A stretch of DNA of 60,682 bases, filler included, from Fonticula-like sp. SCN 57-25 (lineage: Eukaryota): NCBI GenBank assembly GCA_001724245.1. It is 4 parts of 4 records of this genome, joined end to end, with 100 filler letters (N's around TTAATTAATTAA, not from the genome) between each part and the next. Parts side by side here need not be neighbours in the genome. Positions count along the whole stretch, not along the records: positions 45,601 to 60,682 come from MEDX01000145.1; 3 more parts are not named here. One strand, written 5' to 3'. The first letter of the stretch is position 1; each line of letters begins with the position of its first letter. Positions 15,110-52,915 of this stretch are shown in pieces. Below the pieces are notes generated by a model. The model had not been told where the DNA came from, searched no databases, and was given only the letters and a program-made list of their open reading frames with translations. A program made the translations under genes and the position numbers.

Positions 15110-15209
15110 NNNNNNNNNNNNNNNNNNNNNNNNNNNNNNNNNNNNNNNNNNNNTTAATTAATTAANNNNNNNNNNNNNNNNNNNNNNNNNNNNNNNNNNN
15201 NNNNNNNNN
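15110..15209. other. Artificial contig linker
   Basis: N44-TTAATTAATTAA-N44; stop codons in all frames; identical at three places. Confidence 0.97.
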
Positions 15210-30317: not shown

Positions 30318-30417
30318 NNNNNNNNNNNNNNNNNNNNNNNNNNNNNNNNNNNNNNNNNNNNTTAATTAATTAANNNNNNNNNNNNNNNNNNNNNNNNNNN
30401 NNNNNNNNNNNNNNNNN
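30318..30417. other. Artificial contig linker
   Basis: N44-TTAATTAATTAA-N44. Confidence 0.97.
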
Positions 30418-45500: not shown

Positions 45501-45600
45501 NNNNNNNNNNNNNNNNNNNNNNNNNNNNNNNNNNNNNNNNNNNNTTAATTAATTAANNNNNNNNNNNNNNNNNNNNNNNNNNNNNNNNNNNNNNNNNNNN
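45501..45600. other. Artificial contig linker
   Basis: N44-TTAATTAATTAA-N44. Confidence 0.97.
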
Positions 45601-46249: not shown

Positions 46250-46599
46250 ATGTATCATTATTGTTCGTGTATCACAAAGTATGCCCTTGTTAAATACAAT
46301 TTTTGCTCAGAAAAAGAAATGGGTATGTGGGATATGGGTACAGGTGCAATGTGCCTCTTTCAGTTTATGTCACTTGGCCTTTATGAACCACATTCTTCCC
46401 CTCTCTTCAATTATCACCTTCAACAGCTCTATTAATTATGAAGTAAGAGTGTATTGCATTCTTTGTACATAGAGGGCAGAGGAGGAGAGGTGAACCGAGC
46501 ATGGCGGGATCTCTAATGGCCCCGCCGCCCGGTCGTGCACCAAAAAGGAAAACAAGAAAAAAGAATAAAGGGATACCGGAACGCGAGCGCGCCCCTGTT

Positions 46600-48011
46600 C
46601 TACTGGGTCTTCTTGGACCGCTGGGCAGTGCGGTGAAGGATGGTGTCCTCCCCCGAGTCGAGCTGCGCGAGCGAGATCGACACGCCAATGGCGACGACGG
46701 CGAGGACGACCGTCGTGAACACGATCGTGCTGAACGGACCGACAACGTCAAAGTACTCGCAGTTCTCGCCAGTGTAGCCGTTCGCACACTTGCAGCGGAA
46801 GCAGTCGGGGTACTCGTTGGAGGGGTCCGCGCTGGCCGGGAACGAGAGCGTGCAGTTGCCGTGAATCTTGTCGGTGATCACGCCAGTCGAGTTGTCGACC
46901 GAGTAGCTCGAGAAGCACGAGTTGGTCGCGAGCATGCAGTCGTCATAGGTCTCGTAGCACGCGCGGAGCGAAACGCCGGCCTGGACGCTGGCGCCGCTGC
47001 GGGCGTTCTTGGCGGCGGCCGAGCGCGACGACACGCGCGCCAGCTCAACCTCGGGCAGGTACAGGGCCGACACAAAGGCGCGGCCGTTGTACGTCACCGA
47101 GACGGACGCGGCAAGGTCGCGGAGAACGCCAGAGAACGAGGCAGAGTCGGCGGGCGAAACGTCAAAGGCAAAGATCACCATGTCGACGGCAGAGTCGGAG
47201 CCAAACTCGGCGCGGGCCTCGAGGGCGCGAACGAGCGCAACAGTGGCGACGACCTCGACGGCGTGGCGGTCACCGCCATCGATAACCGAAAGAGCGGCGT
47301 TCACGGCGGCGGCGAGCTCAGTGGCGAGCTCCGAGGAGCCCGACGAAACCTCGACGGTCTTGTCGGCAACGTTAAGGTAAAGGGAGATGTGCTTCTCGCC
47401 GGCAAAGCCCTGGCTCACCGAAGAGGCGCGGAGCATGGAGCGCGACGAGCTGAGCGAGATGACGTGCGAGTCGCGCTGGTGGGCAGCGACAGAGTCAAGG
47501 AAGGCAAGAGCGCCCGACTGAACGTCTTCGTTAGAGAAATGGAGTGCATGAGCGGTCAATGCGTACGCGGGAGCCGGTGAGGAGGCCAGAGAGCTGCTCG
47601 GCGTGAGTGGCCGAGGGCTGGATACGCGCAGTGAGGGTGGCAACGGTGGGCTCGAGCTCGGCCGCCGGCGCCGATCCCGACACGACGGTCATGAAGGACA
47701 CGACGGGCTTGCGGATCGGGTGGCCGACGGGCAAAATGCGCACAGTGTCGCGCGATACTCCGCCAAGGTTGGAAGAAACACCGGAAAGGTGAGCAATGGT
47801 GGCCGCAACGTCAGAGGCCGGGATGCGCGACGCGTCATTCGTGAACACCATGTCCTTGGGCGCGGCGAGCACCTTGATCTGTGCCTCTGAAATGGCACAT
47901 AGATTGAGCAAAAGAAGAGAGAAAAATGTGAAAAAATGTATAGTTCGTACCGGCAGCACTCGCGGCAACCACCGCGGCGCACAGCAAGAGCGCGGCGACA
48001 ATTCGCGACAT
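46600..48011 (-). CDS. ATP6AP2/(pro)renin-receptor-like type I membrane protein with DUF3844/EGF-like cysteine module
   Basis: Signal peptide; introns 47887-47950 and 47518-47566. N-domain IKVLAAP..MVF...RIPASDVAATIA..SGVS...PVGHPIRKP and tail FSTIVFTTVVLA...QLDSGEDTILHR resemble ATP6AP2. Cys-rich module lies before the TM. Confidence 0.7.
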
Positions 48012-48316
48012 GGCAAATAAACCTTCCAGACGGGAAAGATCACCTGCTGGACGACGGGGAAACAGTTCAACCTGTTTTTTCTTTCAAGCCCACGTGACGA
48101 TCAGGATCGAGGATCGCGATCGTTCATTTTTCAACGATGACAGCGCATTTGCCGATGACGTAGATGGTGACGTCACATAGGCATAGGTCCATCACTCGCG
48201 CAGGACGCGGCGGCTGCCTGCCCCTCCCCACCTATTCCTCCGGAATCCCGCTCGAGGTTGGCAGCGCTGCGGACGGCACTTGTTGACGACGTCCGGGAGA
48301 GGCGCACGCGTGAGTC

Positions 48317-51300
48317 ATGGAGTTTTCTCCGCGGCATCAGAGCGTTTCGCTGAATATTGACCTTCAGGAGTGCTCGCTTGCCGGATCGACGACGATCCTG
48401 CTTGCCGCGCCCTGGGTCCCTCCACCCCCCGCGGAGCCCGCCGCCCCATCACTCGTTCTCTTTGTTGGCGACGCCACGCAGAGCGCTCCGCCCGCCGAGC
48501 CTGCTGCGCCCGCCGTTCCCGCGAATGTCCCGCTGTCGATCGCGCTCCACTGCTCGTGGCGCATCAGCATCGACAAGGTATCGATCGATGGCGTCGAGAC
48601 GAGGTTCCGCTTCCGCACGCAGCCCAAGCCGGAGCCGATTGTAGGGACGGTGACGCCAAACACCCCGCGCTCCGATTTTAACCTCTTTCTGCCGGCCGAT
48701 GACAATGAAGAGGAGCTCGAGGTCGACATCCCTCCCTCCGTTCAGCAGCGCATCGCTACCGAGCCGGTCTCGACGCCCGCCGAGCACACCTTTTCCCTCT
48801 TGATACAGTACCGCTGCCGCGACCCGCAGGGTGGCGTCTACTTTTACAGCAGCACGCCCGGCACAGTGTCGCACGCGTACACTGAGAATCAGCACAGCTC
48901 GGCACGCATCTGGCTGCCCTGCTTTGATAACCCGACCGATCGCTGCACGTGGGACTTTGAGATCATCGCCTCCAAGCAGCATACAATTATCATGTCGGGC
49001 GACCATTTTGTTGAGCGCGCGATCGAGGGCGGCTTAAAAGCACGCACTGCGCGGATCAACTCACCGATCGACGCGCCCAGTCTCGCCTTTGCCGTCGGCG
49101 AGTTTGCCGAGTACCCTGACCTGTTCATCGACCGCGTGTTTCACTACGCGCCGCGTTCAGAACTCGCAAAGGTCGCTCATACGGTGCAGTTTCTCAGCCG
49201 CGCCTATGACTTTTACCTTGTGCGTGGCGTTAATTCCTTTTTTCTTTGCGCGCTAACAGCATGGATAGGAGTACCTTGACATTGGCTTCCCGTCAGACAC
49301 GTACCAGCAAGTATTCCTTCCCGGCGCGCACCGCAGCATCATGTCGAGCGGCCTTGCCTTTTCTGGCCTCTCATGTGACCTTTTGCACCCGCCGTCCATC
49401 ATCGAAGAAGAGCTCGAGGCGAGGCGGTACGCGGCATATTTTTCAGTTTTTCCCTGCTCACCTTTCCTTTTTTAAGGCATTTGTCGCATGCGCTTGCGAT
49501 GCAGTACTTTGGCCGACTTGTCCATGCGCGTCACCGTCCTGACAGCTGGCTTGTCGACGCCCTTGCACTTCACCTGACACATCTTTTCCTCCGCTCGCTG
49601 ATGGGCGTGACCAACTGGCGCTTCCAGCTCCGCGAGGACATGGACTTTGTGTGCGCCACTGACACTGACCAGCCGCCAATCAGCGACGCCGAATTCCCTT
49701 CGCACCTCGACCGCGAGCTTCGGCGCGTCTTTGTAAAGCGCAAGGGCCGCCTCGTGCTTCACATGCTCGAGAAAAGCCTCGGGGCCGATGCCCTTGACGG
49801 CGCGATTCGGCGCATCTTTCAGACAGAAAACGACACTGGCATTGTTGACGTCACCTTTAGCCAGCTTCTCAAGCTGCTCAAGCGCAACACGGTCAAGGAC
49901 AAGGAAGTCAAAAACCTGACGGACCATTATGTCTACCAGAGCGGCTGCCCGATCATTACCTGCGAGTACGCCTACAGCCGCAAGCGCAATGTCGTCGAGC
50001 TGCGTCTCGGCCAGACGTCCACGTGCGCGGCCACGTCGAGCGACTCCCCCCGCTTCGCCACCCCCGTGACACTTCGCGTTCACGAAACGGAAAACTCTTA
50101 CGAGCACATTTACACCATTGAAGATGTGTCGCACAGTTTCGAGTTTGCGTACCATTCCAAGGCCAAAAAAGTGCGCAAGCCGAAACCGCGTCTCGGCGAA
50201 GAGGCCATGTCGGGCAAGCTCAAGGACATGTGCGACTGGCAGCTGCTCGACAATGACATGGTGGAAGACTCACCTGTCCTGTGGATGCGCGTGGACCCCG
50301 ACATGCAGCTCATCTGCTCCGTGTCGATACGGCAGACAGACTACCAGTGGCGCAACCAGCTGCTCATGGACCGCGACGTTGTTGGCCAGTACAATGCACT
50401 GGTCGCGCTGCGCGCCTTTGCAAACCGCGCCACGTCATGCGCGCTGATTCGCGCCATCGCCGACCGCCGCGTGTTTTACCGCGTGCGCGCCGAGATTGTG
50501 GGCACAGTCGCGGCGGTGGCGGCGCGCCAGTCCGACTATGACGCATTGAAGGTGTTTATCCGCTTTTTCACGGCGTACTACTCGCTCGGAACGGTGCCGC
50601 TCGTGCTCGATCAGGAAGTAGAGGCGCCCGTGATGCGCCCGAACCGCTTCACTGAACTGTCAGACTATTTCGTGCTCAAGGCGATCCCGTCGGCCGTCGC
50701 GACCATCCGCGACGAGCGCGGGCTTCCGGTCGCCGACGCCGTGCGACTTATTCTTTGCATGCTGCGCTTCAACGACAATACAAACTGCGAGTACAGCGAC
50801 TCGTACTATATTGCGCAGCTTGTCGAGTCGCTCGGGACGGCGCTGTACAGCCCCAAAGCGGATATTGCCGTATCAGGTGACCGCAATCATATTAGCCGCG
50901 AGAGCCTTCACGCGCTTTCCCTACTTTCCATCGACGAGATTGAGCGGTGCCGCGCGACCGAGCAGCTGTCGCCGTCATACCGCCACGTGGTTGAAGCCGC
51001 TGCGCTTCGTGCGCTTTGTCAGCTTCAGCTCGCCGATCGCATTCCGCTTCAGGTGACGCCGTTTATCCTTGCTTCCAAGCGGCCGCAGGCCGTCGCCGTC
51101 CGCATCAGCGCCCTGGCGTCGCTCATTCGCACAGCAGGCGGCGACCTTTACATGTTTAGGTATATCATCCACGTGGCGGTGCATGACCCCGAGCCGTACA
51201 TTCGCTTTGAAACGACGCGTCTTTTGGTCGAGTGGGTGCGTCGCGCGGGAAATGACCTGCAGCTGCGCGCACAGCTCGATGTCCTCAAGCACAATATTTC

Positions 51301-52915
51301 ACAATGCCCCGAATTCAAGACAATCATTATTGACTATGTAAGTGATTGTGCTGACGCTGCGCAAGCCGACTTGCTCGCCGAAGTGCTGCAGAGCATCTAC
51401 AAGCATTGCGCAGGTCTCTTCTTGGAAGATCTTGCAAAGACAGTGACGGTCGATGGTCAGCGACTCAAGCTCACACTGAGTGTCGCACTTCCCACGCCTC
51501 AGCAAGCCGCTTTTTCATCGCCCGCCGCGTCGCCCGCCGTCTCGCCGTCAAAGAAACGTCCCTCTTCAGAGTCGAAACGCGCGTCCAAAAAACACGCTTC
51601 GTCGAGCGGCGCAAATTCGCCGCGGCCAGTGAGCCTCATGGCGCTGCTGCAGGCTGACCCGACCGCGGTGGCGCGCACAGCCGACGGCGACGAAGATGAT
51701 GACGTGGACGTTGATGTTGATGACGCAGAGGAGCGCGCGGCGGCGGACGCGGCGGCGGCGGCCGAGCGCGCGAGAAGAAAGCAAGAGGAAGAAGAAGCCG
51801 ATGCGGCGGCGGCAGAGGCGGCGGCCGTGCTGGGCGTGTTTTACAGGGAGGATATGCAAATGTCACGTGATGATTATATGCGTGCGTCGTCGGTGCTGAC
51901 GCCGCTTTTGGACGAGCCGCTGTTTGCAGAGTTTGTTGAGCCTGTTGATACGGATGTGCTGCTGGATTACAAGACGATTGTCGCGACGCCAATGTCGCTG
52001 TCGACGATACGCGACAAGCTCGTGTCGGGGAAATACGCATCTCAGCATGAATTTTCGGTGCGTAACGAGTGTGAAAATGATACTTTTGTGTCAATTGTGT
52101 TACTTTTGTTGTTTTTTTGTGTCACTTTTCGTAGCTTCTTTTTCGTTTTCCACTTTACTAAAAGCCATCTTGCGCCGATTTTAGAAGGACATGGCGCTTG
52201 TTTGGAAAAACTGCCGCTTGTACAACTCTGCTTGGCTTTCCCTTACACAAGCTTCCTATGCTCTCGAAGAGCGTTTCCAGCGACTTTGGCACCGCGCGCC
52301 GACAATTCGTTGCCCGCCGCCGACGCCGCCAACTTCGTCATCAGTCAAACTGCGCTTCCCCGACCAGCCAATGTCGCCCGTCCTGCACGCTGCACTTGCC
52401 GCGCTGTTCAAACGTATGGCCGAACGCAAGGACGCGCAGTTTTACCGCGACCCGTACCGCGAGCCGCTGTACCTGCAAGTCATTCCGGAGCCGCGTTGCA
52501 TCACGGGAATCCAATCTAAACTGCGCCAAAAAGGTAAGTTGGACATATATTTTGACATTTTACCCCCTTTTTTCGCCCTTTTTACGCTTATACTGACACA
52601 ATTTTAGCGTACAAGTCGTTGAGTGCAGTTGAGACTGATGTTCGCATCATGATTGAAAACAGCCGCTACTATAACCTTTCGTACAGCGCTGCTGTCAGGG
52701 ACGCCAACAGTCTCGAAGTCTTTTTCGATGATGAAGTGGCAAAGTTGCTGCGGCCGGGACACTTGCAGGCCATTGAGGACAAGGTGGAAAAGGCGAGAAA
52801 GGCAAAGGCGGCGGCAGAAGGTGGGACGACGACGCCCGCAAAGCAGCAGAGCCCGGGGCCGAGCGAGTCGCCGGCGGTGCAGCAGCCAATCAAGCTAAAG
52901 TTCAAGTTTGGGTAA
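48317..52915 (+). CDS. TAF2: TFIID subunit 2 with two C-terminal bromodomains
   Basis: M1-aminopeptidase-like ARIWLPCFD...RCTWDFE, LAFAVG, WMRVDPDM, QLLMDRDVVGQ, FNDNT.C.YSDSYY; bromodomains FVEPVD...DYKTIVATPMSL...NCRLYN and FYRDP...ENSRYYN; four introns. Confidence 0.92.

What the first reader, a model, noticed from the sequence alone, without database searches (positions are those of the whole stretch)
46600..48011. Possible missing link between animal ATP6AP2 and fungal DUF3844/Vps3844 proteins
Seen: the N-terminal domain and the TM + cytosolic tail (LDSGEDTILHR, compare MDPGYDSIIYR) resemble ATP6AP2. Between them sits CYETYDDCMLATNSC...HGNC...CFRCKC...YTGENCEYFDV (~46745-46960), matching the cysteine pattern I recall for fungal DUF3844 (C..S...C...TN.C..HG.C...C..C.C...G..C...DV). 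Animal ATP6AP2 lacks such a module. Inference: the two families are homologous and this gene preserves the ancestral architecture, predicting a V-ATPase-associated role for the fungal proteins.
Basis: partly seen in the sequence, partly recalled or inferred. Interest (0 to 1): 0.7.

Follow-up and report, generated by a model that had tools for sequence, protein, structure and literature searches.

The report
Fungal-type ATP6AP2 homologue with EGF module
This gene of an uncultured relative of fungi encodes a membrane protein of the family that joins the animal proton-pump helper ATP6AP2 to the fungal 'Vps3844' proteins; the kinship is real, but many fungi already show it, so this gene is an ordinary and rather diverged member.

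Summary
A three-exon minus-strand gene (48011-46600, 432 codons) encodes a signal peptide, a luminal domain, an 8-cysteine module, one membrane helix and a short tail ending in KKTQ.

On its own the protein scores below Pfam's cut-offs for Vps3844_C, Renin_r and RENR_N. Profiles settle the question:
- The protein matches a profile of seven relatives at E 1.8e-26.
- A profile of it and ten relatives finds animal ATP6AP2 chains at E 1.3e-24, on both sides of the cysteine module.
- The same profile matches Mucorales Vps3844 proteins at E 2.4e-29.

So the two families are homologous.

The 'missing link' reading does not hold.
- 9 of 9 Mucorales proteins match both RENR_N and Vps3844_C.
- The Fonticula alba protein is pre-annotated with Vps3844_C plus Renin_r.
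- Two metagenomic relatives pass all three cut-offs.
- The window's copy is a diverged member.

ATP6AP2 lacks the module. Plant AP2, a V-ATPase subunit, probably lacks it too, judging by length alone. A gain on the fungal side is therefore likelier than an ancestral state. A V-ATPase role is inferred, not shown. I found no paper on this link.

The parts
47951..48011 (-). Exon 1: start codon at 48011-48009 and a 20-residue hydrophobic signal peptide
   Evidence: Sequence and frames. This is the only in-frame GT-AG join with a GTACG donor. The signal peptide is judged by eye; no predictor was run.
47887..47950 (-). Intron 1, 64 nt, GTACGAAC...TTTCAG
   Evidence: Script. No RNA evidence.
47567..47886 (-). 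Exon 2: N-terminal part of the luminal domain
   Evidence: Open frame. Weak RENR_N match at E 0.086, protein residues 3-41 to model positions 3-41. No significant match to relatives.
47518..47566 (-). Intron 2, 49 nt, GTACGCAT...CTAAC...TTCAG
   Evidence: Script. The exon-2 frame runs into a stop if the intron is read through.
46969..47517 (-). Exon 3, first part: C-terminal half of the RENR_N-type luminal domain (alpha/beta) and a low-confidence linker
   Evidence: hhalign of P0001 to a profile of 7 relatives covers residues 87-302 at E 1.8e-26. The profile A4 matches ATP6AP2 residues of about 148-289. AlphaFold2 gives pLDDT of about 75-83 for most of residues 41-150 and below 50 for residues 158-183.
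46744..46959 (-). 8-cysteine EGF-like module (start of the Vps3844_C match) with two N-x-S/T sequons
   Evidence: Pfam Vps3844_C begins at the first Cys. The 8 Cys are invariant in 15 of 15 aligned sequences and number 8 in 25 of 25 modules. Profile hits to EGF domains reach E 5.6e-5 to 7.5e-6.
46666..46740 (-). Single membrane helix
   Evidence: Best 19-residue Kyte-Doolittle window is residues 265-283, mean 2.6. AlphaFold2 places a helix at 259-286 with pLDDT 87-95. The helix is covered by both the Vps3844_C and the Renin_r matches.
46600..46665 (-). Cytosolic tail with the LDSGEDTILHR motif, C-terminal KKTQ, and the stop codon at 46600-46602
   Evidence: The Renin_r match runs to model position 78 of 79. 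The tail aligns with MDPGYDSIIYR of ATP6AP2 in the profile alignment. A Lys at position -3 is present in all complete tails printed.

Best explanation
The gene encodes the fungal-side (Holomycota) form of the ATP6AP2 / VHA-AP2 family, which databases call Vps3844. It is a type I membrane protein. It has a signal peptide, a RENR_N-type luminal domain, an EGF-like 8-cysteine module placed directly before the membrane, one membrane helix, and a short cytosolic tail. The tail keeps the ATP6AP2-type D-x-G-x-D-[ST]-[IL]-[IL]-x-R motif and ends in a canonical KKXX signal. Homology to both ATP6AP2 and the fungal Vps3844 proteins is shown. The rest is inferred by analogy with animal ATP6AP2 and plant AP2. 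On that analogy the helix would be enclosed in the c-ring of the V-ATPase Vo sector during assembly in the ER. The tail would face subunit d on the cytosolic side. The KKXX end would return unassembled protein to the ER through COPI. The EGF-like module would sit at the luminal mouth of the ring as a lineage-specific addition. The module was most likely gained on the fungal side after the split from animals.
For: Gene model. Own-sequence Pfam matches to Vps3844_C (E 4.3e-5), Renin_r (7.7e-4) and RENR_N (0.086) fall in the expected order along the protein. phmmer against 1.84 billion representatives gave 13 relatives at E <= 1e-3, all with the module. Of these, 12 of 13 pass the Vps3844_C cut-off, 12 of 13 list Renin_r and 6 of 13 list RENR_N. 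Two of 13 pass all three cut-offs. P0001 alone against a profile of 7 relatives gives 99.7 %, E 1.8e-26, over residues 87-302. Profile A4 (the window plus 10 relatives, no Mucorales) against the PDB finds ATP6AP2 chains at E 1.3e-24 to 2e-21, each in two stretches. A4 against the Mucorales profile A3 gives 99.8 %, E 2.4e-29. The Mucorales-only profile finds ATP6AP2 at E 3.1e-5. All 9 of 9 Mucorales proteins match RENR_N and Vps3844_C. ATP6AP2 and plant AP2 helices lie inside the c-ring, and AP2 contacts subunit d1 (passages read). KKXX as a COPI retrieval signal is established knowledge; the window ends in KKTQ.
Against: No Pfam match of the window's own protein reaches its curated cut-off. 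Exon 2 has no detectable relative. The window's protein lacks the 'YGEDSxQY' segment that is best conserved with ATP6AP2. Nothing links any Vps3844 protein to a V-ATPase experimentally: 0 papers for 'Vps3844', 'DUF3844' or 'PF12955'. S. cerevisiae V-ATPase works without an ATP6AP2 homologue. The introns have no RNA support. The direction of module gain or loss rests on few lineages and on a length argument for plant AP2.
Confidence: 0.62

Rival explanations
1. One reading: the three-part architecture with the cysteine module is ancestral, this gene preserves it, and animals (and plants) lost the module.
For: The module lies exactly between the two ATP6AP2-like parts, and conservation with ATP6AP2 resumes directly after its last Cys. 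Metagenomic relatives P0004 and P0005 combine the module with very animal-like 'YMDPG' tails and strong RENR_N scores.
Against: Mammalian ATP6AP2 chains have only 13 residues where the module would be. The chain named 'subunit AP2' (36qu_r, 364 aa) has 77 residues after its matched N-domain. That is too few for a linker, a module of at least 41 residues, a helix and a tail (inference from lengths). All named module-bearing proteins are from Holomycota: Fonticula and Mucorales. The Atlas's nearest clusters are fungal. The window's copy is itself diverged.
Confidence: 0.2
2. The protein is homologous to ATP6AP2 but has left the V-ATPase. On this view the Vps3844 family acts elsewhere in the secretory or vacuolar pathway, for example as a sorting or quality-control factor, as its database name suggests.
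For: The family name 'vacuolar sorting protein' appears; its experimental basis was not found. The tail motif is degraded in Mucorales (QSG..D.GIIMTQ). Budding-yeast V-ATPase needs no such subunit. An added EGF-like module could mean a new luminal partner.
Against: The membrane helix and tail are the parts ATP6AP2 uses inside the c-ring. They are also the best conserved parts across the family. AP2 is a V-ATPase subunit in both animals and plants, so the role is old.
Confidence: 0.25
3. The protein is a generic EGF-domain membrane protein whose likeness to ATP6AP2 is chance.
For: With the window's protein alone, the PDB search finds only EGF domains, at E >= 0.24. The Foldseek rows for the module model are almost all EGF-type domains.
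Against: The profile E-values of 1e-24 to ATP6AP2 lie outside the module, on both sides of it. Pfam's best family for the module is Vps3844_C, not an EGF family, in the window and in 12 of 13 relatives.
Confidence: 0.03

Closest known systems
Animal ATP6AP2 / (pro)renin receptor (PDB chains such as 6wm2, 6vq6, 9bra; Pfam RENR_N + Renin_r)
   Same: Type I topology. Homologous C-terminal half of the luminal domain. Homologous membrane helix and tail motif: LDSGEDTILHR here, MDPGYDSIIYR in the aligned chain.
   Different: ATP6AP2 has no cysteine module, only 13 residues at that place. The window's protein lacks the conserved 'YGEDSxQ' segment. Its tail ends in KKTQ.
Plant VHA-AP2 (At3g24160; citrus and Arabidopsis V-ATPase cryo-EM; passages read)
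   Same: The authors describe it as an ATP6AP2 homologue whose helix lies inside the c-ring. This shows the family and its role predate animals.
   Different: The sequence match to my profile is weak: 36qu_r, E 0.024, N-domain only. Judged by length it has no room for the module. That 36qu_r is the plant protein is inferred from its molecule name.
Fungal and Fonticula Vps3844 / DUF3844 proteins (Pfam PF12955), e.g. Fonticula alba XP_009497649.1 and Mucorales proteins P0020-P0028
   Same: The same 8-Cys module fused to the membrane helix, the same order of parts, and a Lys at position -3 of the tail.
   Different: The window's module is 67 residues from first to last Cys, against 41-49 in relatives. 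It has a 15-residue insert carrying an NST sequon. Mucorales tails have lost most of the ATP6AP2-type motif.
EGF-like domains (EGF, neuregulin, Notch, selectin EGF)
   Same: The last three Cys follow the C-x-C-x5-G-x2-C pattern (pattern recalled). Profile hits to EGF-type chains reach E 7.5e-6 to 1e-3. The Foldseek rows are almost all EGF-type.
   Different: There are eight rather than six Cys, with an added N-terminal C-x6-C-x6-C part. The module is always fused directly to the membrane helix. No Foldseek match is significant; the best E is 0.44.

Membership tests
ATP6AP2 / VHA-AP2 (Pfam RENR_N PF25294 + Renin_r PF07850) | RENR_N luminal domain above Pfam's cut-off | tested here: not met
   The window's exon 2 gives 13 bits against a cut-off of 39.4, E 0.086. 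Exon 3 gives no RENR_N row. Homology of the C-terminal half is shown only through profiles.
ATP6AP2 / VHA-AP2 (Pfam RENR_N PF25294 + Renin_r PF07850) | Renin_r membrane helix plus cytosolic tail above Pfam's cut-off | tested here: not met
   19.9 bits against a cut-off of 27.8, E 7.7e-4, residues 262-303 to model positions 36-78 of 79. Profile A4 matches the 49-residue ATP6AP2 fragment 8xli_p at E 4.2e-5 and forms the second stretch in the full-length chains.
ATP6AP2 / VHA-AP2 (Pfam RENR_N PF25294 + Renin_r PF07850) | Type I topology: signal peptide, one C-terminal helix, short tail | tested here: met
   Gene model, hydropathy and the AlphaFold2 helix at 259-286. The signal peptide is judged by eye.
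ATP6AP2 / VHA-AP2 (Pfam RENR_N PF25294 + Renin_r PF07850) | Profile-level homology to solved ATP6AP2 chains on both sides of the membrane-proximal region | tested here: met
   E 1.3e-24, two stretches, for a profile that includes the window's protein. The window's protein joins that profile at E 1.8e-26.
ATP6AP2 / VHA-AP2 (Pfam RENR_N PF25294 + Renin_r PF07850) | Physical presence in the V-ATPase Vo c-ring, or a role in Vo assembly | not testable with these tools
   No V-ATPase subunit was identified among the four neighbouring reading frames scanned, and no whole genome is held. This needs biochemistry.
Vps3844 / DUF3844 (Pfam PF12955 Vps3844_C) | Vps3844_C match above Pfam's cut-off | tested here: not met
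   24.1 bits against a cut-off of 27, E 4.3e-5, model positions 1-89 of 104. 12 of 13 relatives pass.
Vps3844 / DUF3844 (Pfam PF12955 Vps3844_C) | Eight conserved Cys followed directly by the membrane helix | tested here: met
   All 8 Cys are invariant in A1. There are 8 Cys in 25 of 25 modules. hhalign of P0001 to the Mucorales profile gives 97.4 %, E 1.5e-11, over residues 183-292.
Generic EGF domain families (PF00008 and relatives) | Pfam EGF-family match at or above the cut-off | tested here: not met
   The best is EGF_Teneurin, E 1, 9.9 bits against a cut-off of 24.3. The fold is EGF-like only qualitatively.

The most novel reading that the evidence does not exclude
Vps3844 proteins are the missing AP2 subunit or assembly factor of the V-ATPase across the fungal side of the tree: Fonticula-like amoebae, early-diverging fungi and probably Dikarya. 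The view taken from budding yeast, that fungal pumps lack an ATP6AP2 counterpart, would then describe a secondary loss. The EGF-like module would be a fungal-side luminal cap on the c-ring.
Probability: 0.5. Interest if true: 0.6.

Novelty: new member of a known kind. Interest (0 to 1): 0.4.

Why it matters
ATP6AP2 is a human disease gene, and its role in the proton pump is still debated. The papers I read treat it as absent from yeast. [quoted passage not shown] If the widespread fungal Vps3844 proteins are its orthologues, genetically tractable fungi could be used to study AP2 function, and the subunit list of fungal V-ATPases would need revising. The window's gene adds only one more, diverged, member. 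The link can be seen without it, in public domain annotations.

Tried and rejected
- Word-indexed protein searches with P0001 and with the full alignment A1 returned only the window's own product and one relative. Low-complexity words probably crowded out the candidates.
- No whole genome is held for this window. Paralogues and V-ATPase subunits in the same organism could therefore not be sought.
- phmmer of P0001 alone against the PDB gave only EGF domains, at E >= 0.24.
- The hhalign of A1 against A3 (E 2.8e-46) is set aside because both alignments contain P0016. The clean repeat is.
- Exon 2 against the Mucorales profile, P0007 and P0019 gave nothing significant.
- Foldseek of the exon-3 model (mean pLDDT 69.3) against the PDB gave no match at E <= 1e-3. 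The best rows were vWA/MIDAS-like alpha/beta folds at E of about 0.006-0.1.
- Foldseek of the module-helix-tail model (mean pLDDT 75.6) gave a best E of 0.44.
- RNA support for the introns: no RNA holder was listed. Laying contigs of four runs showed no joints.
- The Atlas rows are leads only.
- Paper search was badly posed and was swamped by fungal taxonomy papers. Searches listed no paper on a fungal ATP6AP2 homologue, judging from titles and abstract starts only.
- Complex prediction was not used. No partner sequence (c, c'' or d subunit) from this organism was at hand.
- A dibasic KR/RR site within 30 residues upstream of the module occurs in 17 of 25 family members but not in the window's protein. 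I do not claim furin/Kex2-type processing for it.

Full report
**What is there**

The minus strand between 48011 and 46600 carries a eukaryotic gene. No single open frame spans it. A script that tried all in-frame GT-AG joins gave one sensible model:
- exon 1, 48011-47951
- intron 1, 47950-47887 (64 nt)
- exon 2, 47886-47567
- intron 2, 47566-47518 (49 nt)
- exon 3, 47517-46603, followed by the stop codon at 46602-46600

Both introns begin GTACG, and the second holds a CTAAC. The product has 432 residues. In order, it has a 20-residue hydrophobic signal peptide (judged by eye), a luminal domain, an 8-cysteine module (46959-46744), one membrane helix (46740-46666) and a 21-residue tail ending in KKTQ. 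Public gene calls hold only a 278-residue version that starts at an internal Met of exon 3. The introns have no RNA support.

**The observation**

| Pfam family | E-value | Bits | Cut-off |
|---|---|---|---|
| RENR_N (start of exon 2) | 0.086 | 13 | 39.4 |
| Vps3844_C (from the first Cys to the end of the helix) | 4.3e-5 | 24.1 | 27 |
| Renin_r (helix plus tail) | 7.7e-4 | 19.9 | 27.8 |

The best EGF family scores E 1. The resemblances are therefore real leads but not proof on their own.

**Relatives**

A full HMMER pass over 1.84 billion representative proteins gave 13 relatives at E <= 1e-3. The best was 5.5e-13, and all 13 carry the module. Pfam scans of these 13 gave the following:
- 12 pass the Vps3844_C cut-off.
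- 12 list Renin_r, and 2 of them pass its cut-off.
- 6 list RENR_N, and 4 of them pass its cut-off.
- P0004 and P0005 pass all three cut-offs.

Many of the 13 are fragments without an N-domain. Two have names. P0006 is Fonticula alba XP_009497649.1, which UniRef calls a Vps3844 C-terminal domain protein. P0016 is from the mucoralean fungus Mycotypha africana. A second search used an alignment of the module-helix-tail parts. It added eight more Mucorales proteins, six of them pre-annotated with PF12955 plus PF25294, and it listed the Fonticula protein with PF12955 plus PF07850.

**Homology tests**

- The window's exon-3 protein alone matches a profile of seven relatives that excludes it at 99.7 %, E 1.8e-26, over residues 87-302. 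That span covers the luminal domain, the module, the helix and the tail.
- A profile of the window's protein plus ten relatives, with no Mucorales, finds seven distinct ATP6AP2 sequences in the PDB at E 1.3e-24 to 2e-21. Each is matched in two stretches, the N-domain (about 148-289) and the helix plus tail (the alignment is printed).
- Between the two stretches ATP6AP2 has 13 residues, where the profile has about 56 module positions. Those positions match only EGF-type chains, at E 7.5e-6 to 1e-3.
- The same profile matches a profile of nine Mucorales proteins at 99.8 %, E 2.4e-29.
- The Mucorales profile by itself finds ATP6AP2 at E 3.1e-5.
- All 9 of 9 Mucorales proteins match both RENR_N (best E 1.6e-17) and Vps3844_C (best E 1.7e-17). 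Three of 9 also match DUF6859, over the start of the RENR_N region.
- The Atlas's nearest clusters are fungal Vps3844_C clusters from Mucoromycota, Ascomycota and Basidiomycota. In them, 11-12 % of members carry RENR_N and 11-34 % carry DUF6859 (leads only).
- I could not fetch Dikarya sequences, so for Dikarya the link rests on these Atlas shares and on the Pfam model itself.

The two families are homologous, so that part stands. The gene is not a special link. Fungi and Fonticula already show the combined architecture in public annotations, and the metagenomic relatives P0004 and P0005 show it more cleanly.

The window's copy is diverged. It lacks the roughly 14-residue 'YGEDSxQY' segment that is best conserved with ATP6AP2. 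Its module is 67 residues from first to last Cys, against 41-49 in relatives, because of inserts, one of which carries an NST sequon.

Whether the module is ancestral is open, but the evidence leans the other way. Plant AP2 is an ATP6AP2 homologue that sits in the c-ring of citrus and Arabidopsis V-ATPases (passages read). The PDB chain named 'subunit AP2' has 364 residues and only 77 after its weakly matched N-domain. That is too few for a module, a helix and a tail (this is a length argument, and I infer from the molecule name that the chain is the plant protein).

**Mechanism**

Three things are shown: the topology, the homology, and conservation of the helix and tail. The tail keeps the ATP6AP2-type motif. 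Every complete tail printed has a Lys at position -3. The window's protein ends in a canonical KKXX.

The functional reading is inferred from animal and plant work and from general knowledge of KKXX/COPI retrieval. The protein would enter the Vo c-ring during assembly in the ER with its tail toward subunit d, and unassembled copies would be retrieved to the ER. The EGF-like module would lie at the luminal mouth of the ring.

The structure models are of moderate confidence (mean pLDDT 69.3 and 75.6), and Foldseek found no significant PDB match. Solved V-ATPase structures may resolve little of the ATP6AP2 luminal domain (recalled, not checked).

**Context**

The neighbours are ordinary housekeeping genes: PSF1, TAF2 and a protein kinase. 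Earlier notes of this scan call the organism an uncultured amoeba-like relative of fungi (unchecked). That fits Fonticula alba being the closest named relative of this gene.

**Literature**

'Vps3844', 'DUF3844' and 'PF12955' each gave 0 papers. Searches combining ATP6AP2 with fungal terms listed nothing on a fungal homologue, judging by titles and abstract starts. One review says that ATP6AP2's absence from the yeast enzyme suggests its presence is a feature of higher eukaryotes (PMC10003446, passage read). Subscription journals and database entry texts were not searchable.

**Verdict**

The homology claim is right but is already visible in databases. The 'ancestral missing link' claim is not supported. 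The gene is a new, diverged member of a known kind.

Noticed in passing
window 49379-52516 (+), with 48317-49279: The TAF2-like gene (Peptidase_M1_N, TAF2 Ig-like and TAF2 TPR parts) also carries a bromodomain match at residues 839-892 of the long frame, E 3e-10. I have not checked whether a TAF2-bromodomain fusion is usual.
   Followed up: no
window 15110-15209, 30318-30417, 45501-45600: There are three pairs of 44-base N runs. The two runs of each pair are 12 bases apart, and the pairs lie 15,208 and 15,183 bases apart. The near-regular spacing looks like masking or scaffolding rather than biology. The third pair cuts the ends of the kinase and PSF1 genes next to this gene.
   Followed up: partly
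relatives P0005, P0007, P0012, P0016, P0020-P0026, P0028 and others: A KR or RR pair lies within 30 residues upstream of the first Cys in 17 of 25 family members. In the profile alignment this region lies against the basic stretch of ATP6AP2 just before its helix-proximal part. It may be a conserved processing site. The window's protein lacks it.
   Followed up: partly
window 47950-47887 and 47566-47518: Both introns of the gene start with GTACG, and the second holds a CTAAC 14 bases before its 3' end. This may be the organism's splice consensus.
   Followed up: no
P0021 (Rhizopus delemar, 647 aa): One Mucorales family member is about 280 residues longer than its relatives. It may be a fused or mis-joined gene model.
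   Followed up: no
window 46400-48200: Contigs at 99 % identity or more to parts of this stretch occur in runs labelled bioreactor, aquatic, fungus, soil and wastewater metagenome, from several studies. The organism or close kin seem widespread.
   Followed up: partly
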